64,000 bases of DNA from an uncultured Candidatus Saccharibacteria bacterium (lineage in GTDB: Bacteria > Patescibacteriota > Minisyncoccia > Phycocordibacterales > UBA9973). Shown in pieces: positions 3,831 through 41,282 of this stretch. Both the position numbers and the translations under genes were made by a program. The notes beneath the pieces were generated by a model that saw only the letters and a program-made list of their open reading frames with translations, was not told the origin of the DNA and did not search any database. Numbering within the stretch: the first letter of the stretch is position 1; every line of letters starts with the position of its first letter. The stretch lies in assembly GCA_964626965.1 (NCBI GenBank), contig CAZVHB010000001.1, forward strand, positions 1,818 through 65,817. Reading direction: 5' to 3'.

Positions 3831-4781
3831 ATGAAAAAGATAATTCTTTTGGCGATAATCGCCTCGACCATTTTTTCTTTACCAACGTTTGCTCAGCAAA
3901 CGTACATCGCAACTGATGTAAACGGTAAGCGGATTGATTCTGTAATTTATTACAGCTTAGAATCAGCGCAAGCTGCGGCTAATGCGTATGACTTACGTCA
4001 AAAACAACAATTAACACAAACGTTCACGGCGAAAGACGAGAACGGAAATGTAATTGGAGTGTATGCTTCTCAGCTAGAGGCACAAAATGCTACTAACGCA
4101 GATTACATGAGGAGGCATCCAGCTCCTGCACAAGGTAACACAAATCAACAGCCTGCTGAAGATCCATATCTTACTCGAAAAAAAGCTCTTGATTTACAAA
4201 AGGATCAAGAAACAGTTAAAGCTTTGAAGTTGCAAAACGCTAATTCCAAAATCACTATTTTAAACAATGGTATTACTACTGTTGGAAATGGTGTGGGGAC
4301 TGGTGTTTACATTGGTCAACAGCTTGGTCTGATTGGAAATGGTGGTGGACGAGCACAGTTCAATCGCTGTCGCTATTGCAATGTTACCTATGTTGGCACT
4401 CAGCATGTATGTAATCAAAGTGGTGTTGGTGGTGTAATGCCTCCTAACAGTGGTTACAATGGTAGTTATTGCCAAGGGTGTCGCCAGACTTATTATGGCG
4501 GTAATCATTCTTGTGGTACTACTGGTTTCGGCCAGCAAACACAAGGTTGCTTTTGTACTTATTATCAAGGGCAAGGATATGTTCCTAACCAATATGGTAC
4601 GGGTACATGGTGTACTTGGAGAATGAATAGTAATGGCTCCGGGTATGGTTGGTTTCCATCAACCCAACAAGGTGGTTGTGGTAATCAATATGGTGACGGG
4701 ATGTTTCATACACCAATCATCAATCGCTTTGATAATGGAGGACCTGTTCCAGGTGCTCAATATGGTGTTCGCATTTATTAA
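3831..4781 (+). CDS. Secreted Cys/Gly/Tyr-rich protein (signal peptide ...TFAQQ)
   Basis: N-terminal signal peptide. C-terminal half has 16 Cys in CxxC/CxC-like spacing and G/Y/N-rich low complexity. Confidence 0.7.
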   Translation: MKKIILLAIIASTIFSLPTFAQQTYIATDVNGKRIDSVIYYSLESAQAAANAYDLRQKQQLTQTFTAKDENGNVIGVYASQLEAQNATNADYMRRHPAPAQGNTNQQPAEDPYLTRKKALDLQKDQETVKALKLQNANSKITILNNGITTVGNGVGTGVYIGQQLGLIGNGGGRAQFNRCRYCNVTYVGTQHVCNQSGVGGVMPPNSGYNGSYCQGCRQTYYGGNHSCGTTGFGQQTQGCFCTYYQGQGYVPNQYGTGTWCTWRMNSNGSGYGWFPSTQQGGCGNQYGDGMFHTPIINRFDNGGPVPGAQYGVRIY

Positions 4782-4947: not shown

Positions 4948-5904
4948 ATGAAAAAGTTACTCAGTTCTTTCCCAAAAATCCTACTCATTGTAGTAGGTTT
5001 AATAAATTTTAATTACAGTGCATTTGCACAACAGCCCGCCAAGAAAAAAAATATCACGTATTCAGCCGAAGCCGAACTTGCGTACGCGCAAGTATGTGCA
5101 GATTTAAAGGCAGAAAAAGATATTTTTAATTGTAGTCCTACGCTATGGCTACAACAAATCTGTGACAATGCAGTTGAGCAAGGCTATCCGAAATCAACTC
5201 CCGGTCAAATGCTTGATGTTATTCTTGATCCGAAGCAAACTTCTTTGAAGTGGCTTACACCCGATCAAGTTATCAATAGTTATTTGATGAGCGGTGGTTT
5301 TACGGATTGCTTAGCAAAGGAGAATGGATGGTATGTATGTGTTGGAGATTGTATTTTATTTCGACTTGGGCCAACAAATTGTTTGAACCCATGTAAATCT
5401 AAAAATACTGGAACTGGTCGTTACCCTAAAAGAGAACAACCTATTCCTCCTGCACCGCCAATCACTGTTGGACCTGCAAAAGTAACAAACACCGACGTTG
5501 GACCAAATGTAACAGTTACCCAAGCACAAGCACCGCAAAATGTAGTTTCCAATAGCTATAATACATATAACTTTGGAAGTACAACAGTGTCTGCTGTACC
5601 TCAGTTGATGCCGGTTTACTGGCCTCAACAACAACAGGTCAATGTGTATCAGCAACAGGGAACTGTGGCTCCTCCGATTAGCAACCAACCTACGTGTCCT
5701 AATGGGCAACAAGGGTACTGGTACACCTATCCTGATGGACAACGCCAATGGCTTTGTCCTTCATCTGGCACAGGTATCGCCCCTGGAACAGCTCCTGGTA
5801 CTAACGGTATAGGAATCCATCCTGGAGCCCCTGTGAACACCGGTGGTGTCATTACGAATCCTGGAGCAGGCACAAATGGTATCGGCATCACTCCTGGTGG
5901 TTAA
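4948..5904 (+). CDS. Secreted protein with a Cys-containing N-terminal domain and a Pro/Gly/Thr-rich C-terminal repeat region
   Basis: Signal peptide ...SAFAQQ. C-terminus has GTAPGTNGIGIHPGAP/GAGTNGIGITPGG repeats. Confidence 0.7.
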   Translation: MKKLLSSFPKILLIVVGLINFNYSAFAQQPAKKKNITYSAEAELAYAQVCADLKAEKDIFNCSPTLWLQQICDNAVEQGYPKSTPGQMLDVILDPKQTSLKWLTPDQVINSYLMSGGFTDCLAKENGWYVCVGDCILFRLGPTNCLNPCKSKNTGTGRYPKREQPIPPAPPITVGPAKVTNTDVGPNVTVTQAQAPQNVVSNSYNTYNFGSTTVSAVPQLMPVYWPQQQQVNVYQQQGTVAPPISNQPTCPNGQQGYWYTYPDGQRQWLCPSSGTGIAPGTAPGTNGIGIHPGAPVNTGGVITNPGAGTNGIGITPGG

Positions 5905-5931: not shown

Positions 5932-5970
5932 TGAGGAATTTTTGGCCTTGCCAAAAATTCCTCCCTTTTA
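5932..5970 (+). terminator. Rho-independent terminator
   Basis: gaggaatttttggc/gccaaaaattcctc stem followed by a T-rich tail. Confidence 0.6.
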
Positions 5971-6049: not shown

Positions 6050-6077
6050 TTGACATAAATTTATAAATTGATATAAT
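6050..6077 (+). promoter_or_regulatory. Sigma70 promoter TTGACA-16-TATAAT, 8 nt upstream of the ATG at 6086 (leaderless or near-leaderless)
   Basis: Exact consensus hexamers. Confidence 0.7.
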
Positions 6078-6085
6078 AGCTTTAT

Positions 6086-8959
6086 ATGAAAAACATATTT
6101 ACAAAAATTAGTTCAAAAGCATACATAGGCGCACTTGCGCTCTTTTTGGCTTTTGGTCTTACAAGCCAAGCATATGCTGGCGCAGTTGCATGGGCAGGTC
6201 CAACAGAGTTTGGTACTATCGCTAATGTTACCGGAACATCAATCGTCGAAAGTAGTCCTTATACACCATTTTCTTATGCAAATACATCTTCTGCGTCTGC
6301 AGGTGATAAAGTTGCGGTTATTGTGTATTTCCACAATAAAGGAAATGCTGCATCTCCAAACACATATATTAAAGTAAATAAATCAACCAACGGCTCTGCC
6401 TCTACGTTTACATTTACTGGTTCTGTGTCTGGTGGTGGAGCTTCAAAATCTGGCTCAACAACAGTGAACCTTTCTTCTAGTCAAACACTCACGTATATCC
6501 CAGGATCACTACGCGTTAGTAAAGACCGTGCTCCAGTAGGGTACTCAGTATCAAATGATACAGACGTTTTTTCAGGTGCTGGTCTTGATATTGGGATGGT
6601 ACAAGGAATGGATACTTGCGGAACAGACGCACTCTGTCACCAAGGTTCTGTTGCACTTGGATTTCAAGTAAGTTCAACTTCTACAACTCATCTTTGTTCA
6701 AATGGACAAGATGATGACGGAGATCTCCTTATCGATATGAATGACCCAGGATGTACTGACCCAACTGATGATAATGAATACAATCTTGTATCACCACTTG
6801 TGTGTACAATCAATTCTTTCACTGGATCACCTTTGACTGTTGCTTCTGGTGGATATACAAATCTTTCATGGAACACAACAAACTGTACAACTGTTACTGT
6901 TGATGGATTTACCTATCCTGTCGATGGTAGTGGAAATTTTGGCCCACTCTTTGTCGGTAAAACATACTATCTTGCTGCTTCAAACGGAACTAGTACTGAC
7001 TCAGAAACAGTCTATGTTGGTGTAAATACTGTTGCTTCAGCATGTACAATTGATACATACTATGCATCACCAACTACAGTAACTTCAGGTGGATATACAA
7101 CAATTTATTGGAATACATCAAACTGTACGACTGTTACTATCGATGGTATGCCTCAGTCAGTAGACGGAAGTAATTCTTTTGGTCCGATCTATTCTGGTAA
7201 AACATACAACATTGTTGCGTCAAACAGTACAAGTACTGATTCAGATAGTCTCTACGTTGGAACAAATTCTGTAAATAACTGTACGATTGATAATTTCTAC
7301 GCATCACCATCTACTGTTTCTTCAGGGAACTACACAACACTTCATTGGAATACATCAAACTGTGACCAAGTGACGATCGACGGTATTACTTATTATTCTG
7401 TTGATGGAAGTGGATCTTTTGGACCACTCTACAGTGGACGAAGTTACCAAATCCAAGCATGGAAAACTAGTCAATCTCCAGTTTCTCAAACAACATACGT
7501 ATCAGTTGATACATACTCTTCAAACAACTGTAGTATCGATACTTTTTATGCATCACCTACAACAGTAATCTCAGGTAGTACTACTCAACTCTTTTGGAAT
7601 ACATCAAACTGCGACCAGGTTACTGTTGATGGTATTAATTATGGTGTTGATGGAAGTGGTTATTTCGGCCCACTCTATAGTGGACGAAGTTACGTGCTCA
7701 ATGCGTGGAAAAATGGTCAAACTGTACGTACACAAACAGTCTATGTTGGTGTAAATTCTGTCAATAATTCATCTTACGCATGTAATGATGGGTATGATAA
7801 TGATGGTGACGGACGTGTAGACTATCCAAATGACGCTGGTTGTTACTCATCAACTGATAACGATGAATACAACTATGTTGCACCAGCTGTTTTGAATACT
7901 GTTGTGACAACACTCAACCCAAGTAATCTTACATCTTCTTCTGCACGTTTGAATGGATCTATCTTCAATGGTGGAAATAATGCAACTCAGTTTTATTTTG
8001 AATGGGGAACAGATACAAATTCTCTTCCAAACAAAACAAATTCACAAACAACCTTTTCAGATAATTCAGTAACGTACTTTGATACTGCATACAATCTTTC
8101 AACTGGTGTTACCTATTACTATCGTGCAGTTGCACAAAAAAGTAATGGAGTGGTCATCCGTGGCGATATTAGACAATTTCGCTTGATTGAAGTGGTAACT
8201 CCTGTATTTACAAATACAGTGACACGAGTAGTTACGGTGCCAGCTCCAGTAGTACAAGAGAGAGGAGTAGTTGTCGGACTTGGAACAAATCTTGTACAGC
8301 TTCGATATATTACGAATGATATCCTTAGTACAAATACTGGTGGTTTTGGAATCACTCAAACTGGTATCAATCAAAATGTAAACAATGGTGTACAAAATGT
8401 CTGTGTTGATGACAGTATTAAATTTGTTGTTGAATACAGAAATATCTCAACAATTACACTTAATAATGCAATCCTTCATATTGATATTCCAAAAGATGTC
8501 GACTTCCGAAGTTCATCAGCCGGAGTATTTAATAAAGCAGACAATACTATCACTATCAATGTAGGAACACTCACTCCTGGTCAATCAGGTCAAGTATCTT
8601 TCGACGGAATTGTTATGAGTAGTGCAGCAAATCGAGATCTTCTCGTTGTCCCAGCAACACTCTCATTTGAAAATCCAAACAATGGTGCTCGAGAAACAGC
8701 GATTGCGTACGGACTCGCAACGACTCAAAACTGTATTAAAAATGGGGGACTTGCCGGATTCGCATTCGGTTCAGGATTCTTTCCAGATACACTCTTTGGA
8801 TGGTTGCTCTTAATTCTCGTACTCCTCGCTCTGATTTACCTTCTTCGAAGAATGTTTATGGTGTATGGAATCGGACCAAGATCAAAGACCACAACCACAA
8901 CGACTACACAAAGACATTACGAGGATATGGATATTCCAACAGCGCCATACCAACACTAA
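6086..8959 (+). CDS. Large cell-surface protein (957 aa): signal peptide, 4 tandem ~80-aa repeats flanked by Asp-rich CxxGxDxDGDG motifs, a fibronectin-III-like domain, a DUF11-like domain and a C-terminal TM anchor
   Basis: Repeats CTIDxFYASPxTVxSGxYTxLxWNTSNC..VT.DG..Y.VDGSG.FGP.YSG. Also NATQFYFEWGTD (fn3-like), TPGQSGQVSFDGIV (DUF11-like) and a C-terminal GSGFFPDTLFGWLLLILVLLALIYLLRR. Confidence 0.75.
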   Translation: MKNIFTKISSKAYIGALALFLAFGLTSQAYAGAVAWAGPTEFGTIANVTGTSIVESSPYTPFSYANTSSASAGDKVAVIVYFHNKGNAASPNTYIKVNKSTNGSASTFTFTGSVSGGGASKSGSTTVNLSSSQTLTYIPGSLRVSKDRAPVGYSVSNDTDVFSGAGLDIGMVQGMDTCGTDALCHQGSVALGFQVSSTSTTHLCSNGQDDDGDLLIDMNDPGCTDPTDDNEYNLVSPLVCTINSFTGSPLTVASGGYTNLSWNTTNCTTVTVDGFTYPVDGSGNFGPLFVGKTYYLAASNGTSTDSETVYVGVNTVASACTIDTYYASPTTVTSGGYTTIYWNTSNCTTVTIDGMPQSVDGSNSFGPIYSGKTYNIVASNSTSTDSDSLYVGTNSVNNCTIDNFYASPSTVSSGNYTTLHWNTSNCDQVTIDGITYYSVDGSGSFGPLYSGRSYQIQAWKTSQSPVSQTTYVSVDTYSSNNCSIDTFYASPTTVISGSTTQLFWNTSNCDQVTVDGINYGVDGSGYFGPLYSGRSYVLNAWKNGQTVRTQTVYVGVNSVNNSSYACNDGYDNDGDGRVDYPNDAGCYSSTDNDEYNYVAPAVLNTVVTTLNPSNLTSSSARLNGSIFNGGNNATQFYFEWGTDTNSLPNKTNSQTTFSDNSVTYFDTAYNLSTGVTYYYRAVAQKSNGVVIRGDIRQFRLIEVVTPVFTNTVTRVVTVPAPVVQERGVVVGLGTNLVQLRYITNDILSTNTGGFGITQTGINQNVNNGVQNVCVDDSIKFVVEYRNISTITLNNAILHIDIPKDVDFRSSSAGVFNKADNTITINVGTLTPGQSGQVSFDGIVMSSAANRDLLVVPATLSFENPNNGARETAIAYGLATTQNCIKNGGLAGFAFGSGFFPDTLFGWLLLILVLLALIYLLRRMFMVYGIGPRSKTTTTTTTQRHYEDMDIPTAPYQH
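6803..7774 (+). repeat. Four tandem ~240-bp (79-83 aa) intragenic repeats
   Basis: Each repeat starts with a TGT (Cys) codon, at 6803, 7043, 7280 and 7529. Confidence 0.8.
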
Positions 8960-8989: not shown

Positions 8990-9025
8990 CACAAAAAACC
9001 GGAATTGCCTCCGGTTTTTTGTTTG
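8990..9025 (+). terminator. Rho-independent terminator
   Basis: aaccggaattgcctccggtt followed by ttttttg. Confidence 0.75.
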
Positions 9026-13013: not shown

Positions 13014-13487
13014 ATGAAAAAATCTCAAAAAGGTTTTACACTCATCGAACTTTTGATTGTTATCGCAATCATCGGTGTACTCGCAGCTGTTCTTATTCCT
13101 AACTTGCTCGCAGCTCGTAACAAAGGAGTAGACGCAGCTATTAAAGCTAACCTTGCTGCTACAAAATCTCAAGCAACATTGTTCTACGAAACATCACAAG
13201 TATTTACTGGTGTGTGTGCAACTGGATCTTCAACAGCTATCGGTGATATGGTTCTCAGTGCAGCACAAAAACTCTCTGGAGCTAACACTGTAACTGCTGC
13301 TACATGGGCGTACTCTTCAACTGGTGCGGCTAACTCTGCTGTGTGTCATGATAACGCTACAGCATGGGCAGCGATGGTATCTCTCAAGAACCCATCAACT
13401 ACATCTGGTGGATGGTGTGTTGACTCAACTGGTGCTACAAAAGAAACAGCTACTGCACTCGCAGCTGGTATTGCTGTTTGTCCATAA
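13014..13487 (+). CDS. Type IV pilin (major pilin paralog 1)
   Basis: Class III signal MKKSQKG/FTLIELLIVIAIIGVLAAV with a C-terminal Cys-Cys disulfide loop. Confidence 0.9.
   Translation: MKKSQKGFTLIELLIVIAIIGVLAAVLIPNLLAARNKGVDAAIKANLAATKSQATLFYETSQVFTGVCATGSSTAIGDMVLSAAQKLSGANTVTAATWAYSSTGAANSAVCHDNATAWAAMVSLKNPSTTSGGWCVDSTGATKETATALAAGIAVCP
13028..13158 (+). repeat. 131-bp segment identical to 13640-13770 (conserved 5' part of two pilin genes)
   Basis: Exact nucleotide identity across the prepilin N-terminal helix coding region. Confidence 0.9.
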
Positions 13488-13505
13488 GGAATTTATATTC
13501 TTTAC

Positions 13506-13537
13506 AAAAAAAACACCCAATCGGGTGTTTTTTTGTG
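13506..13537 (+). terminator. Rho-independent terminator
   Basis: aaaaaaaacaccc-aatc-gggtgttttttt. Confidence 0.8.
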
Positions 13538-13582
13538 TAAAAGGAGCTTGTGCTTTAAAAAAGCAAGATGTATACTGTTCTT

Positions 13583-14098
13583 ATGAAGATTTATATAAAA
13601 CATAAAGAAAAATTCGCGAGGGAAAGTATTATAAATAGTAAAGGTTTTACACTCATCGAACTTTTGATTGTTATCGCAATCATCGGTGTACTCGCAGCTG
13701 TTCTTATTCCTAACTTGCTCGCAGCTCGTAACAAAGGAGTAGACGCAGCTATTAAAGCTAACCTTGCTGGTATACGTTCAGAAGATATTTTATATTATGA
13801 AAATAACAACTCTTCTTTTTTAAACATCTGTACTACGTCAGTTACCGGTCTCGCTGACCAACTTGATAGTGCCGCAAAAAAGCTCTCTGGTTCTAATACT
13901 GTTGGTGGTTCAGCTCAAGCTTTTACCTACTCTGCAACTGGTGGTACTGGTTCTGCTGTGTGTCATGACTCTGCTACGGGTTGGGCTGCGGTTGTGTCGC
14001 TCAAGAACCCATCAACTGCATCTAGTGGATGGTGTATTGATTCCGTGGGTGTTTCAAAAGAAGTTACTACACTCGGAGCTAATATACGTGCTTGTTAA
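13583..14098 (+). CDS. Type IV pilin (paralog 2)
   Basis: Same N-terminus as paralog 1, variable middle, conserved C-terminal CHD...W..VSLKNPST...GWC. TGTATACT-N6-ATG at 13583. Confidence 0.85.
   Translation: MKIYIKHKEKFARESIINSKGFTLIELLIVIAIIGVLAAVLIPNLLAARNKGVDAAIKANLAGIRSEDILYYENNNSSFLNICTTSVTGLADQLDSAAKKLSGSNTVGGSAQAFTYSATGGTGSAVCHDSATGWAAVVSLKNPSTASSGWCIDSVGVSKEVTTLGANIRAC
13640..13770 (+). repeat. Second copy of the 131-bp identical pilin 5' segment
   Basis: Identical to 13028-13158. Confidence 0.9.
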
Positions 14099-14109
14099 TC
14101 AATTATTTT

Positions 14110-14156
14110 CCTCACTACAAAAAAACACCCGATTGGGTGTTTTTTTGTAGTGAGGA
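14110..14156 (+). terminator. Rho-independent terminator (extended stem)
   Basis: cctcactacaaaaaaacacccgattgggtgtttttttgtagtgagg. The core hairpin is the reverse complement of the one at 13506. Confidence 0.8.
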
Positions 14157-14223
14157 AACACGCTATGTGAATATCTTCTGTTTACTTCTTTCTTTTTTAA
14201 AAGTATCTGGGTATACTATACGT

Positions 14224-14700
14224 ATGAAAAAAATATATAAATCTCAAAAAGGTTTTACACTCATCGAACTTTTGATTGTTATTGCAATTATTAGTGTTAT
14301 TGCCTCTGTGCTTATTCCAAACGTCATGGCTGCGCGAGACAAAGGAACAACCGCTGCGCAAAGAGCCGAAGTAAAAACAGTACAAACAGAAGCAGTTGTT
14401 TTATGGGAAGCTAATAGTGGTAATCTTACCACTGTGTGTACTAACAGTACTGGGGCTCCTCGTACAGCACTCTTGAGCGCCCTGAAAAAGGGCTATCCAA
14501 ATGGTCAAATTGGAATTTTGGCGAACTCCATAGCATCGAGTTCTGGTAACGGTGCTGGTGTGTGCCACAGTACGGCATCTGCATACGGGGCAGAAATACC
14601 TCTTAAGTCTGGTGGATTTTTGTGTATGGATTCTACTGGTTTAGTGGTAGAATCTCTGACGACAAAAATTGGAACAGTGAATGATACATCTTGTTTATAA
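14224..14700 (+). CDS. Type IV pilin (paralog 3, divergent)
   Basis: MKKIYKSQKG/FTLIELLIVIAIISVIASV. GGTATACT-N6-ATG. Confidence 0.85.
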   Translation: MKKIYKSQKGFTLIELLIVIAIISVIASVLIPNVMAARDKGTTAAQRAEVKTVQTEAVVLWEANSGNLTTVCTNSTGAPRTALLSALKKGYPNGQIGILANSIASSSGNGAGVCHSTASAYGAEIPLKSGGFLCMDSTGLVVESLTTKIGTVNDTSCL

Positions 14701-14730
14701 TTTGTTTCTAAAATACAAAGGTTATATATT

Positions 14731-14768
14731 ACAAACCCAAGCAAACTAGTTTGCTTGGGTTTGTTTGT
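14731..14768 (+). terminator. Rho-independent terminator
   Basis: aaacccaagcaaactagtttgcttgggttt followed by gtttg. Confidence 0.75.
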
Positions 14769-14795
14769 TCCTTGCTATAGTAGTATACTGTGTAC

Positions 14796-15623
14796 ATGTT
14801 TGAATTATATGGAATCTTCGTTTTTATTTTAGGAATGATTATCGGTTCATTTTTAAATGTTGTCATTTATCGGTTCAATACAGGACGGGGACTTGGCGGA
14901 CGATCATTTTGTTTTACCTGTAGACGGACACTGTCTTGGCACGAACTTGTACCGATCGTCAGCTTTGTTAATCAGAAAGGGCGCTGTAAAGGTTGTGCTT
15001 CAAAAATCTCTTGGCAGTATCCACTCGTTGAAGCTATCACCGGCCTGGTATTTGTTTCGCTCTTTATAAAATTTTTTCCAACACTTGATCTGACGCTTTC
15101 CGGTATTTGGCCAAGTTTGTTTTACCTTATTTTCTACACGTATATATTTTGCCTCCTTATTGTCATTTCAGTGTATGACTATCATCATCAGATTATTCCC
15201 AATAAACTTGTTTGGCTATTTAACATCCTCGCATTTTTAAGCCTCTTTTTGTTTGTGGGTGTTTCAGGTAGTGCTGTATACAGTATTCATCTTCCAACAC
15301 TTATGTCTATTGTGGCGGGGCCACTTATTGCGTTACCGTTTTTCTTTCTGTGGATGATTACCAAAGGGCGGGGTATGGGATTTGGTGACGTAAAGCTCGC
15401 ACTCGGTATTGGCTGGCTTCTTGGACTTTTTGCAGGACTTGCGACAGTTATTGTCTCTTTTTGGATTGGAGGATTTTGTGCGCTGATTGTACTCTTTCTT
15501 AAGAAAAATAAATATACACTCAAGAGTCATATTGCATTCGGTCCATTTCTTTGTATCGCTACGTTCCTTGTTTTTTTATTTAATGTTACAATTATTGATA
15601 TATTGCTACGGTTTCACTTTTAA
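14796..15623 (+). CDS. pilD: Prepilin peptidase (A24 family)
   Basis: GSFLNVVIYR, a CxxC...CxxC zinc knuckle and the catalytic GFGDVKL. TATACT-N6-ATG at 14796 (the ORF track starts at a GTG at 14790). Confidence 0.9.
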   Translation: MFELYGIFVFILGMIIGSFLNVVIYRFNTGRGLGGRSFCFTCRRTLSWHELVPIVSFVNQKGRCKGCASKISWQYPLVEAITGLVFVSLFIKFFPTLDLTLSGIWPSLFYLIFYTYIFCLLIVISVYDYHHQIIPNKLVWLFNILAFLSLFLFVGVSGSAVYSIHLPTLMSIVAGPLIALPFFFLWMITKGRGMGFGDVKLALGIGWLLGLFAGLATVIVSFWIGGFCALIVLFLKKNKYTLKSHIAFGPFLCIATFLVFLFNVTIIDILLRFHF

Positions 15624-15631
15624 TACACTCA

Positions 15632-16372
15632 ATGGAAAATAGATTATCACAATTACAAAATAGATTAGCTTGTAAACAGAGCGTTAAAAAAAGCGGAGCT
15701 TTTTTTAACGCTGGTTTTACAGTTATCGAAATGGTGACAGTGATTGCTATTTTTACAATACTTCTCGGAATCACTATGGCCAACTTTGACCTTTTTAAAA
15801 AGACGACTGATTTTAATCTCTCCGCTCAAGAGGTAGCATTTTTTATCAAGAGTCAACAACAAAATGCTATGGCTGGAAGATTTCCAGAAATTGATCCGTA
15901 TGTAAAAAATTATCCACCCACATCATGGCGCCCTTCATATGGACTCTATTTTAGCGTAGCCAACTCAGATAGAGTGTTACAGTTTTATGATAGTGATAAT
16001 GACTTCCTCATGACTGCGCCGTCAGGAAACACTTCGTGCGCAAATGACCCAGAGTATGAATGTATGAAAGAGATTATTTTTGACAAGATGACACTTGTGA
16101 GTATCTGTGATATGGATCCAAGTGGGTGTATTTCACGTAGTTCAGTTTCTGTTGTGTTTAAGCGTCCATTTCCTGATGCTCGTATTAATGCAGACTATAC
16201 TCCTTTTGATGTGTATGATTGTGTTGTAAATATGATATGTAATGCTACTAGTGTACCTACCCCAGTAGCAAACACTATAGAATTACGTTTTGAAACACCT
16301 GGTGTTACTGGTGCCAATATTGTCTCTATAAATCCACTTGGTGTTTTGACTGTTAGAAGAAGTAGTATATAA
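15632..16372 (+). CDS. Minor pilin / pseudopilin (FimT/GspH-like)
   Basis: Prepilin signal ...NAG/FTVIEMVTVIAIFTILLGI. Confidence 0.7.
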   Translation: MENRLSQLQNRLACKQSVKKSGAFFNAGFTVIEMVTVIAIFTILLGITMANFDLFKKTTDFNLSAQEVAFFIKSQQQNAMAGRFPEIDPYVKNYPPTSWRPSYGLYFSVANSDRVLQFYDSDNDFLMTAPSGNTSCANDPEYECMKEIIFDKMTLVSICDMDPSGCISRSSVSVVFKRPFPDARINADYTPFDVYDCVVNMICNATSVPTPVANTIELRFETPGVTGANIVSINPLGVLTVRRSSI

Positions 16373-23522: not shown

Positions 23523-24476
23523 TTAGTGTCCGTGTCCATGTGCATCATGCCCATGAGCGTTTCCTCGTCTGAGGAAAAATCTAAATAAGTAGATGATTGC
23601 ACCAACAAGAACTGCAAGGAAAATCCATCCGAGGAGTGTTCCTCCGAAGAAGTTACTTCCTGAACCGATTGCACTTGCTCCGAGAGCACTGTTTGCACAG
23701 GTACCGTTTCCAAATGCATATGCGACAACCATGTTTTGATTTTGATCAGGGAGTGTATAGACCATTTCACTACGAGCAACTCCTTCTATGATTCCAGTTT
23801 TTTTAACTGGGAAGAGAATTTGTCCTCCTTGTTCAGGTGCGAGTGTGCCTACAAAGAAGGTGACAGTGTTGTCTCTTTCTGAGTATGATCCACCATTCGT
23901 ATTTGTTGGGGTGATTCCTGTTGGGAGACTGATTCGAATTGCAACATTAGTTACAACAGCTCCTGTGATATTTTTGTACAAAATAAGATATTCTTCTTTT
24001 GTTGTTCCACAGAGTCCGTTATTAGTACCCATAGCAAGTCCCTTACTATTTACGAGTGCCTGAAGGTTTTGATCGGCTTGTGCACTATCAGACCCATTTG
24101 AAAAGATTTTTTTACCTCCAAAGATACCGTCAAAAATAGTTCCATCGTTATTTGAACTGGTGTTCGTTGTTGTGTTGGTGTTTCCTGCACTGTTTCCATA
24201 CTGTGTGCCTGCATACGTATCATTACCCATAATAATAGGGGCTTGAGGAATATACTGAGCTGGTTGCTGGTAGTTTGAAGTAACCACACCTTGATTGGTG
24301 TTTTGGTATGCAGATACAGCATTGTTTTGTCCTGTGTATGTATTTCCGTAGGTTTGTGGTAATTGATTTGCATATTGAGCACAACCTGGGTCGTACATAG
24401 TACATGCCGATGCTTTACTTGCAAGTACAGAGAAAACAAAGAAAGCTATTAAAATAATGATTTTTTTGATATTCAT
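23523..24476 (-). CDS. Surface protein with a DUF11-like domain and a C-terminal sorting-signal-like tail plus a His-rich end
   Basis: Signal peptide. GTLAPEQGGQILFPV (DUF11-like). The C-terminus GSGSNFFGGTLLGWIFLAVLVGAIIYLFRFFLRRGNAHGHDAHGHGH parallels the C-terminus of the 6086 protein. Confidence 0.7.
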   Translation of the reverse strand: MNIKKIIILIAFFVFSVLASKASACTMYDPGCAQYANQLPQTYGNTYTGQNNAVSAYQNTNQGVVTSNYQQPAQYIPQAPIIMGNDTYAGTQYGNSAGNTNTTTNTSSNNDGTIFDGIFGGKKIFSNGSDSAQADQNLQALVNSKGLAMGTNNGLCGTTKEEYLILYKNITGAVVTNVAIRISLPTGITPTNTNGGSYSERDNTVTFFVGTLAPEQGGQILFPVKKTGIIEGVARSEMVYTLPDQNQNMVVAYAFGNGTCANSALGASAIGSGSNFFGGTLLGWIFLAVLVGAIIYLFRFFLRRGNAHGHDAHGHGH

Positions 24477-39329: not shown

Positions 39330-41282
39330 ATGGATAATAAATATATGCCAAAAAGTTCCAAATTTCAGAATTTAGAGGATTCTTTGTACGATCCAACCGA
39401 TGACAGTATCCGCACTCGAAGCGGATCTCTACATCCCTCACAAGTTTCTGTTGAACAAAGTTGGTCAAAAGTTGATCAAGCTGAAGACTCACAAGGGCAA
39501 GCTGCAGAAAAAGCATTGATTGAAAACAGGGACGCGCTTTCCAGAAAGAAAAACTCTTTTTTTAAGAAGTTTTTTGTCTCATCACTCCTTTTTCTGTTTG
39601 TCGCTGTTGGTTTTGGTGTGTATTCTTTTTTTATAAAAAATACGATCAATCCAGAGGGGAATATCACTATCGGTATCGTTGGAAGTACTTTTACTCAAGC
39701 TGGAGAAGAATTACCTTTGATTGTTGAAATAGAAAATAAAAATGATTTTGCACTCGAAGTAGTTGATCTGATTGTTGAATATCCTCGTGAAGGAGCGATA
39801 CCGACTGCATCTCTTGAAACGACCGACAGAGAGCGGATATCTCTTGGTACTATTGATGCGCATCAACACATGTTGAAAGAAGTTCCACTCACACTCTACG
39901 GTAAAGAAGGTGATAAAAAGGAGATTCATTTTACACTTGAATACAATATCGAAAGTGCTTCAACAATTTTTCAAAAACAAAAAATATATTCAGTAACACT
40001 CTCTTCTTCTCCGATTGCGATGCGTGTTATTGGTTCTGATATCGCTGTGCCTGATCAGAGTTACCGGTTCACGGTTGAGGTAAGTACTAACACTAAGAAA
40101 CCTCTTGAAAATATTCTTCTTGCATTAAATTATCCTATTGGATTTACCTATACGAGCGCGAGTATTGAACCAAGCTCAGGTAACTATTTGTGGGATATTG
40201 GTACCCTTGTACCAGGAGCCCCAAAGACTATAGAAATTATAGGAAAATTTTCAGGCCTTGAAGGAGACGAAAGATCTGTTCGTGCTATTTTTGGTACGTA
40301 TCTTCCTGATGATAAGACAAAAATCAGTACAAATCTTGGAACTCTCTTGCAAACCGTAAAATTAGAGAAACCTTTCATATCAACAGATCTTGCTATTAAT
40401 GGAGTGAATGGTGAATTTGTAAATATCAACAGTGGTGAACAAATTCAAGGAGTGATTAATTGGAAAAATAACCTAACTAACCAAGTGCTCGATCTTGAGA
40501 TTCGTCTGAAGCTCAAAGGTGACTTACTTGATCGAACAAGTATTGAAGCACAGGATGGCTTTTATGATTCACTCAATGATACGATTGTGTGGAATAAAAA
40601 TACAATTAATTCTTTTGTTCGAGTTCCGGCTGGTGCAAATGGAGCACTTAACTTTACTATTCGCACACTCCCTGCAAAAACAGATGGAAGTATGAAAAAT
40701 CCTCGTATTGAAGTTGAGGTTGGTGTTAAAGCAATTGAAGATAGTGAAGGTAAAACTCCAAAAATTATTGAATCTGTTGAACAGACAACAGTACGTGTTG
40801 GTGGTGATGTGTTTTTGACTCCAGTTGTCTATCATCGTACTGGTCCTATTACAAACGTCGGTGCGTATCCTCCAAAAGTAAACACAGAGACGACCTATAC
40901 TGTTGAACTTAATATTAAGAATACTATTAATGATTACAGTGGTGGAGAAGTTCGTGCAAAATTCTTCCAAAATGTAACATTCACCAATGTTATTGCACCT
41001 GCAACCGAGCAAATTTCATACGACGAGAAAACAGGTGAGCTTGTTTGGAAAGTCGGTGCTATCCCTCAATCAAGTGGTATCGCACGTACTGTCGCATTTC
41101 AATTAAAGACGATTCCTTCACTTTCTCAAGTTGGACAGTTTGTACCTCTCCTTAAGGAAATGACTTTTGTCTCGACTGATCAATTTACTAAAACTCAAAA
41201 ATCTCAGAGTATTGATACGATTACCTCTGAAGTGAGTCGAGTGATTGAGCTCGATGGAGGGAATGCTGTCGTAGTTAAATAA
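39330..41282 (+). CDS. Large membrane-anchored protein (cytoplasmic N-terminus, 1 TM helix, extracellular DUF11-like repeat domains)
   Basis: TM helix FFVSSLLFLFVAVGFGVYSFFI; several blocks matching the conserved repeat domain (DUF11) pattern ...GxxVxYTVxVxN.... Confidence 0.6.
   Translation: MDNKYMPKSSKFQNLEDSLYDPTDDSIRTRSGSLHPSQVSVEQSWSKVDQAEDSQGQAAEKALIENRDALSRKKNSFFKKFFVSSLLFLFVAVGFGVYSFFIKNTINPEGNITIGIVGSTFTQAGEELPLIVEIENKNDFALEVVDLIVEYPREGAIPTASLETTDRERISLGTIDAHQHMLKEVPLTLYGKEGDKKEIHFTLEYNIESASTIFQKQKIYSVTLSSSPIAMRVIGSDIAVPDQSYRFTVEVSTNTKKPLENILLALNYPIGFTYTSASIEPSSGNYLWDIGTLVPGAPKTIEIIGKFSGLEGDERSVRAIFGTYLPDDKTKISTNLGTLLQTVKLEKPFISTDLAINGVNGEFVNINSGEQIQGVINWKNNLTNQVLDLEIRLKLKGDLLDRTSIEAQDGFYDSLNDTIVWNKNTINSFVRVPAGANGALNFTIRTLPAKTDGSMKNPRIEVEVGVKAIEDSEGKTPKIIESVEQTTVRVGGDVFLTPVVYHRTGPITNVGAYPPKVNTETTYTVELNIKNTINDYSGGEVRAKFFQNVTFTNVIAPATEQISYDEKTGELVWKVGAIPQSSGIARTVAFQLKTIPSLSQVGQFVPLLKEMTFVSTDQFTKTQKSQSIDTITSEVSRVIELDGGNAVVVK

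What the first reader, a model, noticed from the sequence alone, without database searches (positions are those of the whole stretch)
6086..8959. 957-aa surface protein with an Asp-rich-motif / 4x80-aa repeat / Asp-rich-motif module, an fn3-like domain and a DUF11-like domain
The four tandem repeats (CTIDxFYASPxTVxSGxYTxLxWNTSNCxxVTxDG..Y.VDGSG.FGPLYSG) are bracketed by two near-identical Cys-Asp-rich motifs, CSNGQDDDGDLLIDMNDPGCTDPTDDNEYN and CNDGYDNDGDGRVDYPNDAGCYSSTDNDEYN. These resemble calcium-binding thrombospondin-type-3 / MopE-like motifs. The repeats are 240-bp near-identical at the DNA level in places, so repeat-number variation by slipped-strand recombination is likely. This is a candidate adhesin for host attachment.
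Basis: partly seen in the sequence, partly recalled or inferred. Interest (0 to 1): 0.5.

Follow-up and report, generated by a model that had tools for sequence, protein, structure and literature searches.

The report
Surface protein with variable-length calcium-jointed stalk
This gene encodes a membrane-anchored surface protein of a tiny uncultured (Patescibacteria/CPR) bacterium, in which four antibody-like domains flanked by two calcium-binding motifs form a spacer whose length differs between related bacteria; it is an uncharacterised but fairly ordinary kind of modular surface protein, and the repeats in this gene are too diverged to be hypervariable.

Summary
The ORF (6086-8959, 957 aa), the four ~80-aa repeats (R) and the two bracketing Cys/Asp motifs (A) are real. 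The repeats are only 59-69% identical in DNA (longest shared exact run 23 nt). An ortholog at dS 0.59 keeps the same 4R+2A. Ongoing slippage in this gene is therefore not supported.

From the N-terminus the protein has a signal peptide, a 165-aa beta-sandwich head, A1, four Ig-like R domains, A2, an fn3-like domain, a disordered linker, a DUF11-like domain, a TM helix and a 33-aa tail.

The A profile best matches the Teneurin-4 C-rich domain (7PLP). It conserves 7 calcium-ligand side chains and the Cys pair matching one teneurin disulfide. NCBIfam NF033662 also models it. The Pfam MopE and TSP_3 models do not match.

Positional orthologs next to polA carry 1-4 R and 2-4 A. Two alleles 100% identical in DNA differ by exactly one 114-bp A unit. 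The head occurs in about 1,540 protein clusters, usually with 0-9 R before the same anchor.

My best reading is a calcium-stiffened spacer of evolutionarily variable length that displays a conserved head. Adhesin versus S-layer component is unresolved. This is a new variant of a known kind, of modest interest.

The parts
5933..5963 (+). Intrinsic-terminator-like hairpin (14-bp stem plus T run) that closes the upstream gene and isolates the target gene.
6050..6077 (+). Perfect sigma-70-type promoter, TTGACA-16 nt-TG-TATAAT (12 of 12 matches). It ends 8 nt before the ATG and there is no Shine-Dalgarno sequence. This implies a leaderless or near-leaderless transcript that is probably strongly expressed (inference).
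   Evidence: The same arrangement is conserved upstream of the orthologs in L005 and L006.
6086..8959 (+). Complete ORF of 957 aa plus stop codon.
   Evidence: The exact protein is also found on an independent Logan contig.
6086..6178 (+). Sec-type signal peptide, aa 1-31. It has a basic N-terminus, a hydrophobic core, and AYA followed by G.
   Evidence: Sequence. AF2 predicts helix 4-22 at low pLDDT. The cleavage site is inferred.
6179..6679 (+). N-terminal 'head', aa 32-198. It is a beta-sandwich with one Cys pair (C178/C184). It has no Pfam or PDB sequence relative and shows only weak local resemblance to the DUF11/CARDB hairpin.
   Evidence: - AF2 pLDDT 80-93.
- CARDB E 0.2.
- hhalign against the DUF11-like domain gives probability 36%.
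- No PDB hit.
- 1,540 representative clusters carry it, almost always at the N-terminus.
6686..6793 (+). A1, aa 201-236. Acidic single-disulfide motif CSNGQDDDGDLLIDMNDPGC...DDNEYN, a degenerate copy.
   Evidence: E 7e-15
6803..7042 (+). R1, aa 240-319. Ig-like beta-sandwich with Cys pair 240/267.
7043..7279 (+). R2, aa 320-398. Ig-like beta-sandwich with Cys pair 320/347.
7280..7528 (+). R3, aa 399-481. Ig-like beta-sandwich with Cys pair 399/426.
7529..7771 (+). R4, aa 482-562. Ig-like beta-sandwich with Cys pair 482/509.
7772..7882 (+). A2, aa 563-599. Canonical acidic single-disulfide motif CNDGYDNDGDGRVDYPNDAGC...DNDEYN.
   Evidence: E 5e-20
7895..8185 (+). fn3-like beta-sandwich, aa 604-700.
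   Evidence: AF2 predicts 7 strands at pLDDT 81-93. Of 55 family members, 9 hit Pur_ac_phosph_N, 4 hit PhoD_N and 2 hit fn3. The window protein itself has no Pfam hit here.
8195..8389 (+). Low-confidence T/V/P/N-rich linker, aa 704-768.
   Evidence: pLDDT 30-50. It is the least conserved extracellular segment.
8390..8740 (+). DUF11-like beta-sandwich, aa 769-885, with Cys pair 773/883.
   Evidence: PF01345 scores 20.6 bits against a cut-off of 24.6. 44 of 55 homologs hit DUF11. pLDDT is about 90.
8741..8857 (+). Conserved pre-TM motif (GFAFGSGFFPDTLFGW) followed by the TM helix, aa 886-924.
8858..8956 (+). Cytoplasmic tail, aa 925-957. It ends in RHYEDMDIPTAPYQH, which is conserved within this clade.
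8991..9022 (+). Intrinsic-terminator-like hairpin (13-14 bp stem plus T run) between the gene and polA. The gene is therefore monocistronic.
   Evidence: It is conserved after the orthologs.

Best explanation
The gene encodes a type-I-anchored cell-surface protein of a Paceibacteria-type Patescibacteria (CPR) bacterium. It is transcribed on its own from a consensus promoter.

**Topology (inferred from the anatomy).** After Sec export and signal-peptide removal, a C-terminal TM helix holds the protein in the membrane and a 33-aa tail stays in the cytoplasm. From the membrane outward it has:
- a DUF11-like beta-sandwich;
- a ~65-aa flexible linker;
- an fn3-like domain;
- motif A2;
- four Ig-like domains R4 to R1, each with a conserved Cys pair that probably forms a disulfide;
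- motif A1;
- a 165-aa beta-sandwich head at the tip.

**The A motifs.** Each A motif is a loop closed by one disulfide (CxDGxDNDGDGxxDxxxDxxC). It most likely binds two or three Ca2+ in the manner of the Teneurin-4 C-rich domain and thrombospondin type-3 repeats. This would stiffen the joints at both ends of the Ig-like array (inferred by residue-for-residue correspondence to 7PLP).

**The A-R(n)-A cassette.** The cassette acts as a spacer that sets how far the head stands from the membrane. Module number changes over evolutionary time by unequal recombination between module copies (shown across orthologs). In this gene the copies have diverged, so the array is now stable (shown).

**The head.** What the head binds is unknown. 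I favour a conserved binding or contact function, such as a partner-cell or envelope ligand, over a hypervariable adhesin.
For: **Anatomy**
- AF2 full-length model: mean pLDDT 78, R domains 85-95, TM helix 903-924.
- AF2 model of R4+A2: pLDDT 86.
- Foldseek with the whole model returns multi-Ig ectodomains.
- The 16 Cys fall into 8 within-domain pairs. The Cys of R and A are invariant across the family.

**Calcium**
- Across 41 A copies, C4, D9, D11, D13, D17, D20 and C23 are invariant. D6, N10, G14, D28 and E31 are at least 90% conserved.
- The A profile best matches Teneurin-4 7PLP, aligned to [22 protein letters not shown].
- PMC9058538 shows that D840, D843, N844, D845, D847, D851 and D854 of that stretch coordinate Ca2+, and that C838-C857 is a disulfide. 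These are the positions conserved in A.
- EF-hand loops are the next-best hits.
- NF033662 matches twice and passes its cut-off in the homologs P0026 and P0028.

**Spacer logic**
- The 73 homologs show the architectures ARA (commonest, ~635 aa), ARRA, AARRA, AARRRA, ARRRRA, ARARA, ARARARA and R(n).
- Six loci with the same neighbours (target, sometimes TsaE, PolA, PEMT, then a holA-like gene) carry 1, 2, 3 or 4 R.
- Repeats group mostly by lineage, which indicates local duplications.
- The alleles in L086 and L087 are 100% identical over 2,184 nt except for one 114-bp A unit. The adjacent A copies share an 81-nt exact run.
- Of the 147 best head-bearing cluster representatives, 113 have head...DUF11-like with 0-9 R and 0-3 A between them.

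**Stability and constraint here**
- DNA identity between R copies is 59-69%.
- Against the L006 ortholog dS is 0.585 with the same module count, and dN/dS is 0.03-0.13 in every extracellular domain.

**Transcription unit**
- Consensus promoter and flanking terminators.
Against: - No experiment or expression data exists for this protein.
- Calcium binding rests on a borderline profile hit (E 0.0046) to a 23-residue stretch. A has two Cys where teneurin has six. A1 has lost two consensus positions.
- The Pfam TSP_3 and MopE models give no hit.
- I could not inspect the model coordinates, so disulfide and Ca-site geometry are unverified.
- A stalk role is an argument from architecture. Variable domain number is also seen among predicted Patescibacteria S-layer proteins, which come in 6-domain and 3-domain forms (bioRxiv 10.1101/2024.05.28.596244).
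- The 114-bp allelic indel comes from two short-read assemblies. An assembly artefact is not fully excluded, although the 81-nt identical run is shorter than the k = 119 suggested by the contig name.
Confidence: 0.55

Rival explanations
1. It is the S-layer protein of this bacterium, or one component of its S-layer. The beta-sandwich domains would tile into a Ca2+-dependent 2-D lattice that the C-terminal helix ties to the membrane, as in archaeal S-layers built of Ig-like domains.
For: - The protein has a signal peptide, a string of Ig-like domains, a C-terminal TM anchor and acidic Ca-binding motifs.
- The gene is monocistronic with a perfect consensus promoter and strong terminators.
- It sits in a conserved position beside housekeeping genes.
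- All domains are under strong purifying selection.
- bioRxiv 10.1101/2024.05.28.596244 predicts Patescibacteria S-layer proteins made of six or three Ig-like domains, some of similar size (643-727 aa).
- PMC10936435 finds Ig-like secreted proteins among the five most expressed signal-peptide genes of cultured Paceibacteria.
Against: - Positional orthologs differ by 1-4 R domains, and near-identical alleles differ by one A unit. That is hard to reconcile with a fixed lattice geometry if these modules make lattice contacts.
- A ~65-aa disordered linker interrupts the chain.
- Two other window ORFs carry DUF11-type domains. The 317-aa protein at 23523-24476 has the same DUF11-like + TM anchor cassette. 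The protein at 39330-41282 has a divergent DUF11 domain behind an N-terminal TM segment and lacks that cassette. The shared cassette looks like a general anchor.
- No match to any known S-layer or SLH family.
- Homology to the published candidates could not be tested here.
Confidence: 0.25
2. It is a phase- or length-variable adhesin whose repeat number changes frequently within populations by slipped-strand mispairing or recombination between near-identical 240-bp repeats.
For: - Module number does vary across orthologs.
- A one-unit A indel exists between identical alleles in a sister lineage.
Against: - In this gene the R copies are 59-69% identical in DNA, with a longest exact run of 23 nt.
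- TRF finds no array.
- A1 and A2 share no long identical run. The best stretch is 75% identical over 40 nt.
- The ortholog at dS 0.585 has the same 4R+2A, and the only length differences are 1, 1 and 5 codons elsewhere.
- dN/dS of the head is 0.08.
Confidence: 0.05
3. The Asp/Cys motifs are MopE-type copper-binding (or other metal-binding) sites, and the protein scavenges or buffers metal at the cell surface.
For: PMC3278476 aligns the related teneurin core with the Pfam Cu-binding_MopE consensus. The motifs are strongly acidic.
Against: - PF11617 gives no hit to A1 or A2 even at E <= 10, and none in the 55 family members.
- The conserved ligands are all carboxylate or amide oxygens in a DxDxDG pattern typical of Ca2+. 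His, Met and kynurenine-type Cu ligands are absent.
- The closest solved relative binds Ca2+.
- There are only two motifs per 957 aa.
Confidence: 0.03

Closest known systems
Teneurin C-rich domain (human Teneurin-4, PDB 7PLP) and the thrombospondin type-3 repeat Ca sites it resembles
   Same: The stretch CxDxxDNDGDGxxDxxDxxC is shared. Seven Ca-ligand side-chain positions (D840, D843, N844, D845, D847, D851, D854) are conserved in the A profile, and the A Cys pair aligns with the C838-C857 disulfide. Both sit between extracellular beta-rich or EGF-type domains.
   Different: - A has 2 Cys, not 6.
- A lacks the LDL-A-like third site residue D856 (Gly in A) and E835.
- A carries its own conserved tail (TDNxEYN).
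- A is prokaryotic and occurs in 1-8 copies.
- The profile match is borderline (E 0.0046), and the Pfam TSP_3 model does not hit.
NCBIfam NF033662, 'acidic double-disulfide repeat'
   Same: It is the only curated model that recognises the A motifs. It gives two matches in the window protein and passes its cut-off in the homologs P0026 and P0028.
   Different: The window protein scores 35.2 bits, below the 41-bit cut-off. Only profile positions 3-28 of 32 are matched. The A motif has one Cys pair, whereas the family name implies two.
Ca2+-rigidified Ig-like extender regions of bacterial repeat adhesins, such as the Marinomonas ice-binding RTX adhesin, SiiE and Bap/SasG-type stalks (from my own knowledge, not tested here)
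   Same: Both have tandem Ig-like domains acting as a length-setting stalk between an anchor and a distal binding region. In both, calcium sits at the joints and copy number varies between strains or species.
   Different: - Here there are few (1-9) diverged repeats rather than tens of near-identical ones.
- Calcium would be bound by separate 37-aa motifs at the ends of the array rather than at every Ig-Ig interface.
- The anchor is a C-terminal TM helix preceded by a DUF11-like domain, not T1SS/outer-membrane or LPXTG.
- There is no sequence relationship.
DUF11 (PF01345 / TIGR01451 'conserved repeat domain') surface proteins
   Same: The membrane-proximal domain is DUF11-like. Most homologs are annotated this way.
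   Different: The window protein is below Pfam's threshold (20.6 against 24.6 bits). There is a single copy rather than an array. It is followed by a conserved FFPxTLxGW + TM signal, not LPXTG.
Predicted Patescibacteria S-layer proteins built of three or six Ig-like domains (bioRxiv 10.1101/2024.05.28.596244)
   Same: Same phylum and class, a signal peptide, several Ig-like domains, and similar sizes for the short forms (643-727 aa against ~635-690 aa for the one-repeat members of this family).
   Different: [quoted passage not shown]

Membership tests
NCBIfam NF033662 acidic double-disulfide repeat | Whole-protein HMM score at or above the curated cut-off (41 bits) | tested here: inconclusive
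   The window protein scores 35.2 bits with E 7e-9 and two matched stretches. The homologs P0026 and P0028 score 46.5 and 47.6 bits.
NCBIfam NF033662 acidic double-disulfide repeat | Two disulfides (four Cys) per repeat, as the name implies | tested here: inconclusive
   The A motif has exactly two invariant Cys, and only profile positions 3-28 of 32 are matched. I could not see the model's own Cys pattern.
Teneurin C-rich domain / thrombospondin type-3-like Ca site | Conserved acidic Ca ligands in the pattern D-x2-D-N-D-x-D-x3-D-x2-D, closed by a disulfide | tested here: met
   The profile-to-7PLP alignment was mapped onto the ligand list in PMC9058538. Seven of seven positions are kept in the family consensus and in A2. 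A1 keeps five unchanged, swaps D840 to N206 and N844 to D210, and also has Leu for a conserved Gly.
Teneurin C-rich domain / thrombospondin type-3-like Ca site | Six Cys forming three disulfides (1-3, 2-5, 4-6) | tested here: not met
   Only the pair equivalent to C838-C857 is present.
Pfam TSP_3 (PF02412) and Cu-binding_MopE (PF11617) | HMM match | tested here: not met
   Neither family hits A1 or A2 at E <= 10. Neither appears among the families hit by the 55 homologs at E <= 0.01.
Calcium binding as such | Measured Ca2+ occupancy or Ca-dependent stability | not testable with these tools
   Needs protein biochemistry.
Pfam DUF11 (PF01345) | HMM score at or above the gathering threshold (24.6 bits) | tested here: inconclusive
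   The window domain scores 20.6 bits, E 6e-4. 44 of 55 homologs hit at E <= 0.01, and most carry a precomputed PF01345 annotation.
fn3-like (PF00041 / Pur_ac_phosph_N / PhoD_N) | HMM match, and a seven-strand sandwich | tested here: inconclusive
   The window segment has no Pfam hit. Of 55 homologs, 9 hit Pur_ac_phosph_N, 4 hit PhoD_N and 2 hit fn3. AF2 predicts a confident beta-sandwich at 604-700.
Slipped-strand / contingency-type repeat adhesin | Near-identical tandem DNA repeats | tested here: not met
   59-69% DNA identity and a longest exact run of 23 nt. TRF finds no array.
Slipped-strand / contingency-type repeat adhesin | Copy-number differences between closely related strains | tested here: inconclusive
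   Not seen for this lineage: the count is the same at dS 0.585. Seen for the A unit in a sister lineage between alleles 100% identical in DNA, from short-read assemblies.
S-layer protein | Known S-layer or anchoring domain (SLH and similar), or homology to a demonstrated S-layer protein | tested here: not met
   No such Pfam, NCBIfam or PDB sequence hit. Comparison with the predicted Patescibacteria S-layer proteins was not possible.
S-layer protein | Self-assembly into a 2-D lattice; very high abundance | not testable with these tools
   The only indirect evidence is the consensus promoter.
LPXTG / sortase-anchored surface protein | LPXTG-type motif, hydrophobic stretch and a short basic tail at the extreme C-terminus, recognised by curated models | tested here: not met
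   - The motif is FFPDTLFGW.
- A 33-aa conserved tail follows the helix.
- There is no NCBIfam sorting-domain hit. PEF-CTERM and JDVT-CTERM score only 12-13 bits.
- No ORF with a TLxTC motif occurs in the window.

The most novel reading that the evidence does not exclude
The head-(A/R)n-DUF11-TM proteins are a major, lineage-wide envelope system of Paceibacteria-type CPR bacteria. In this reading the A motifs have two roles. They are Ca2+-dependent rigid joints. They are also conserved DNA 'handles' for unequal recombination that adds or removes A and R-A units. The projection length of a conserved head would thereby be tuned to the thickness of the cell's own S-layer or of the host's envelope. 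A corollary is that the teneurin C-rich Ca module has a widespread prokaryotic (CPR/DPANN) counterpart. That bears on the proposed horizontal origin of teneurins.
Probability: 0.12. Interest if true: 0.6.

Novelty: new variant of a known kind. Interest (0 to 1): 0.33.

Why it matters
Patescibacteria live attached to other cells, and very little is known about their surface proteins. This analysis defines a large uncharacterised family. The head occurs in about 1,540 clusters at 50% identity, the anchor is conserved, and the middle is built from two module types in variable number.

It also yields a concrete, testable calcium-binding prediction based on a solved structure. In addition it provides a natural series of 1 to 4 or more Ig-like spacers at one conserved locus. 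That series could be used to test whether stalk length tracks envelope or host properties.

For this particular gene the practical conclusion is sobering. It is a stable gene under purifying selection, not a hypervariable contingency locus.

Tried and rejected
- **Pfam and NCBIfam on the whole protein and on excised segments**. Nothing scored above threshold. The sdhA and L-aspartate oxidase hits and the NOMO1 and DUF6301 hits are short chance matches inside the R domains.
- **PDB sequence search** with the whole protein and with the head and DUF11 profiles. Only chance-level hits appeared (TCR, ABL SH2, ribosome assembly factors).
- **Foldseek with the full-length model**. It returned only generic multi-Ig proteins with TM-scores near 0.1, which are uninformative beyond 'a string of beta-sandwiches'.
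- **The afdb50 library** was unavailable.
- **The search for related loci with the full-length alignment** failed because no block was conserved enough. The R-A alignment worked.
- **hhalign of head against the DUF11-like domain**. It found only a 34-column hairpin at 36% probability, so I do not claim that the head is a second DUF11.
- **Upstream secreted proteins as partners.** The 318-aa ORF is found only in the closest relatives (L005, L006) and the 316-aa ORF in none, so I rejected a conserved operon partner.
- **Sortase search in the window**. None was found.
- **Literature searches** for 'acidic double-disulfide', for DUF11 with Patescibacteria, and for thrombospondin type 3 with Patescibacteria returned nothing relevant.
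- **The listing of cluster members** gave no link to the accession numbers of the published S-layer candidates.


Full report

The window holds an uninterrupted ATG-initiated ORF at 6086-8959 on the + strand, encoding 957 aa.

Splitting the protein at the recurring 'C[TS]I[DN]' start gives four tandem units:

| Repeat | Residues | Length |
|---|---|---|
| R1 | 240-319 | 80 aa |
| R2 | 320-398 | 79 aa |
| R3 | 399-481 | 83 aa |
| R4 | 482-565 | 84 aa |

- The repeats are 55-63% identical to one another in protein.
- A repeat HMM built from the family scores each copy at E 1e-25 to 1e-29 and hits nothing else in any frame of the window.
- Two Cys/Asp-rich motifs (A1 at aa 201-236, A2 at aa 563-599) bracket the array exactly.

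- The repeats are not near-identical in DNA. Codon-aligned identity is 59-69% and the longest exact shared run is 23 nt. Ungapped extension gives 68-76%. Tandem Repeats Finder finds no ~240-bp array even at its lowest score threshold.
- A1 and A2 are only 47% identical to each other, and A1 is a degenerate copy.

**2. Anatomy**

AlphaFold2 with a 55-sequence family alignment gives a mean pLDDT of 78. Domain boundaries are clear:

| Residues | Feature | Confidence / notes |
|---|---|---|
| 4-22 | signal-peptide helix | low pLDDT |
| ~32-198 | beta-sandwich 'head' | pLDDT 80-93 |
| 201-236 | A1 | pLDDT 71-75 |
| 240-562 | four 7-8-strand sandwiches (R1-R4) | pLDDT 85-95 |
| 563-599 | A2 | pLDDT 63-74 |
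| 604-700 | beta-sandwich | pLDDT 81-93 |
| 704-768 | disordered stretch | pLDDT 30-50 |
| 769-885 | beta-sandwich | pLDDT ~90 |
| 903-924 | TM helix | |
| 925-957 | disordered tail | |

- The 604-700 domain has no Pfam hit in this protein. In 55 family members it hits Pur_ac_phosph_N (9), PhoD_N (4) and fn3 (2). 'fn3-like' is therefore fair.
- The 769-885 domain hits DUF11 at 20.6 bits, just under the 24.6 cut-off. 44 of 55 homologs hit DUF11. 'DUF11-like' is therefore fair.
- The 16 cysteines fall into 8 within-domain pairs: head, A1, R1-R4, A2 and DUF11-like. The R and A pairs are invariant across the family. This is what one expects of an exported, disulfide-stabilised protein.

**3. The Asp/Cys motif**

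Forty-one copies from the family give the consensus TYQCNDGiDNDGDGxxDYPNDPGCSSxTDNxEYN.
- Invariant: C4, D9, D11, D13, D17, D20 and C23.
- At least 90% conserved: D6, G7, N10, G14, D28 and E31.

A profile of this alignment searched against all PDB sequences puts the Teneurin-4 C-rich domain first (7PLP, E 0.0046). It aligns to '[22 protein letters not shown]'. EF-hand loops of calmodulin-type proteins follow.

The 7PLP paper (PMC9058538) reports three points.
- In exactly this stretch D840, D843, N844, D845, D847, D851 and D854 (with D856 and E835) coordinate three Ca2+.
- Sites I and II match thrombospondin type-3 repeats.
- C838-C857 is a disulfide.

Mapped through the alignment, these seven ligands are the invariant or near-invariant positions of A. 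The A Cys pair corresponds to C838-C857.

As formal membership it fails.
- Pfam TSP_3 and Cu-binding_MopE give no hit.
- A has two Cys where teneurin has six.
- NCBIfam NF033662 ('acidic double-disulfide repeat') recognises both copies but scores 35.2 bits, below its 41-bit cut-off. It passes in the homologs P0026 and P0028.

A pattern scan of one genome per species found the R-A unit in Paceibacteria/Nomurabacteria-type Patescibacteria. The A motif alone is much more widespread. It occurs in other CPR lineages, in DPANN archaea (Woesearchaeota, Nanobdellota), in Thermoplasmatota, in Methanosarcinales and in a few other bacteria.

**4. Family and copy number**

The first search returned 73 homologs, all unnamed or 'DUF11 domain-containing', from Nomurabacteria and Paceibacteria MAGs. 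Counting modules with HMMs gives ARA as the commonest form (~635 aa). Other forms are ARRA, AARRA, AARRRA, ARRRRA (this gene and its 91%-identical relative), ARARA, ARARARA and R-only arrays.

Six loci share the same neighbourhood: target, sometimes TsaE, PolA, a PEMT-family protein, then a 231-aa holA-like protein. They are positional orthologs, yet they carry 1, 2, 3 or 4 R and 2-4 A. In a repeat tree the copies group mostly by lineage, which indicates local duplications.

The sharpest case is in a sister lineage.
- P0005 (727 aa) and P0083 (765 aa) are identical at all 727 aligned residues.
- Their genes are 100% identical over 2,184 nt.
- They differ only by a clean 114-bp indel equal to one A unit, and the adjacent A copies share an 81-nt exact run.
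- P0007 (689 aa, 94% DNA identity) is the one-copy form.
- These are short-read assemblies, so an artefact cannot be wholly excluded. However, the identical run is shorter than the k = 119 suggested by the contig name.

In the window lineage nothing of the kind is seen. Against the ortholog in L006, dS is 0.585, module counts are identical, and the only length differences are 1, 1 and 5 codons outside the repeats.

An exhaustive profile search with the head domain found 1,540 representative clusters at E <= 1e-3 and 657 at E <= 1e-10, almost always with the head at residues ~28-195. Of the best 147, 113 have head...DUF11-like with 0-9 R and 0-3 A in between. The family rule is a conserved head, a conserved anchor and a variable middle.

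Head and anchor similarities are discordant between subgroups. P0009-P0013 share the head at 56-65% identity but the DUF11-like domain at 26%. P0002, P0003, P0005 and P0007 share the DUF11-like domain at 82-85% but the head at 46-63%. This indicates domain shuffling as well.

**5. Transcription unit and context**

- A perfect TTGACA-16-TG-TATAAT promoter ends 8 nt before the ATG, with no Shine-Dalgarno sequence. The same layout stands before the closest orthologs. A leaderless, strongly expressed mRNA is inferred.
- Strong hairpin terminators flank the gene at 5933-5963 and 8991-9022, and the downstream one is conserved.
- The neighbours are housekeeping genes: RecG, a DUF192 protein, PolA, a PEMT-family protein and a holA-like protein.
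- Three type IV pilin genes and a prepilin peptidase lie 4-6.5 kb downstream.
- GC content is about 38%. The window also holds RNase P RNA and one tRNA.

**6. How it most likely works**

The topology follows from the signal peptide and the single C-terminal helix. The head is distal and the DUF11-like domain is membrane-proximal.

The A-R(n)-A cassette behaves as a spacer.
- Its modules are the best-conserved parts in sequence, with medians of 53-68% identity against 30-37% for the head, fn3-like and DUF11-like domains.
- They are also the most variable parts in number.
- That combination is the signature of a structural extender rather than a ligand-binding surface.

The A motifs sit at the two ends of the Ig-like array. 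By analogy with teneurin and T3 repeats they should fold only around Ca2+, which would make stiff joints.

Every extracellular domain has dN/dS of 0.03-0.13, and the head is at 0.08. The head's function is therefore conserved. This does not look like an antigenically racing adhesin.

I commit to 'Ca-jointed, evolutionarily length-variable stalk displaying a conserved head' at 0.55 confidence. Whether the head binds a host or partner surface or makes envelope contacts is open.

**7. Rivals**

The serious rival is an S-layer component (0.25).
- A preprint predicts Patescibacteria S-layer proteins of six or three Ig-like domains, some of similar size.
- Ig-like secreted proteins are among the most expressed genes of cultured Paceibacteria.
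- The consensus promoter, the housekeeping locus and purifying selection all fit.
- Against it are the copy-number differences between orthologs and near-identical alleles, the long disordered linker, and the reuse of the same DUF11-like + TM cassette by a 317-aa protein at 23523-24476.
- A further DUF11 protein at 39330-41282 has an N-terminal anchor and lacks that cassette.
- I could not test homology to the published candidates.

A MopE-type copper role gets 0.03.

**8. Novelty and verdict**

Each ingredient is known in kind: Ig-like repeats, a T3/teneurin-like Ca motif, DUF11 and a TM anchor. The motif already has an NCBIfam model.

The following are not described in anything I could find:
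- the head domain family;
- the R domain family;
- the FFPxTLxGW pre-TM signal;
- the use of single-disulfide Ca motifs as end-joints of a copy-variable Ig array.

I rate it a new variant of a known kind, with interest 0.33.

Noticed in passing
window 8741-8956 (aa 886-957); also homologs P0001-P0059: The C-terminal signal is conserved: LGASAFG..FFPxTL(L/V)GW, then a TM helix, then basic residues. In the ~635-aa members the protein ends 6-9 aa after the helix, which is the three-part layout of a sortase/exosortase-type sorting signal. In the window clade a further ~30 aa follow and end in the conserved RHYEDMD(I/V)PTAPY(Q/R)H. Another clade ends in EVEYTPYRPTPK. No curated sorting-domain model matches. 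50 of 125 head-bearing representatives carry F[FLW]Px[TS]xxGW.
   Followed up: partly
window 23523-24476 (-): This 317-aa protein has a signal peptide, an N/Q/T-rich low-complexity region, a DUF11-like domain homologous to that of the target (E 3e-18), and the same pre-TM motif and TM helix (..FFGGTLLGW..) with a His-rich tail. The DUF11-like + TM cassette appears to be a shared anchor for several surface proteins in this genome.
   Followed up: partly
window 39330-41282 (+): This 650-aa protein has an N-terminal TM segment (type II topology) and a DUF11 hit above Pfam threshold (29.1 bits). It is another beta-sandwich surface protein, with the opposite anchoring polarity.
   Followed up: no
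window 6050-6086; L005 and L006 upstream regions: The consensus promoter (with an extended -10) ends 8 nt before the start codon and there is no Shine-Dalgarno sequence, so the mRNA is probably leaderless. This is conserved in the two closest orthologs. More distant orthologs (L002-L004) have different upstream regions, also without an obvious SD.
   Followed up: partly
L086 3001-5298 vs L087 2074-4257 (sister lineage), and L002 8001-10070: This is an allelic series of 689, 727 and 765 aa that differs by whole 38-aa A motifs. The 727 and 765 forms are 100% identical in DNA apart from one 114-bp unit. The A copy that follows the R domain also shares 76-84-nt exact runs with the upstream copies. 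Those runs could mediate R-A duplication or deletion and so explain the ARARA forms.
   Followed up: yes
L005 8150-8260: The ARARARA ortholog (P0004) is split into 736-aa and 236-aa ORFs by a 1-nt frameshift in the linker region (near ..CCAGATAGGGTG..). The second ORF carries the DUF11-like domain, the TM helix and the tail. This may be a sequencing error, a pseudogene or a programmed frameshift; I did not resolve it.
   Followed up: partly
window 13014-16372; L002-L004 upstream: Three type IV pilin genes, a prepilin peptidase and a further N-methyl-motif protein lie 4-7 kb downstream of the target. In three orthologous loci a PilB-type ATPase (T2SSE) lies ~3 kb upstream. This could be chance proximity in small genomes or a surface-structure neighbourhood.
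   Followed up: no
window 3831-4781 and 4948-5904 (+): These are two ~317-aa proteins with signal peptides and Cys/Gly/Gln/Pro-rich C-terminal halves, and neither has a Pfam hit. The second is found only in the closest relatives (L005, L006). The first was found in none of the five compared loci.
   Followed up: partly
family-wide (alignment A1): There is domain mosaicism. Some homologs share a similar head but a very different DUF11-like anchor with the window protein, and others show the reverse. This suggests recombination between family members.
   Followed up: partly
window 8888-8908 (aa 935-941): A run of seven Thr codons (ACC ACA ACC ACA ACG ACT ACA) lies in the cytoplasmic tail. The 91%-identical ortholog lacks five of these codons. 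It is the only multi-codon length difference between the two genes.
   Followed up: no
loci (e.g. L037, L048, L050, L064, L071): The A motif alone, without R, occurs in DPANN archaea (Woesearchaeota, Nanobdellota), Thermoplasmatota and Methanosarcinales, and also in several CPR lineages. It is thus a widespread prokaryotic counterpart of the teneurin C-rich calcium motif.
   Followed up: no
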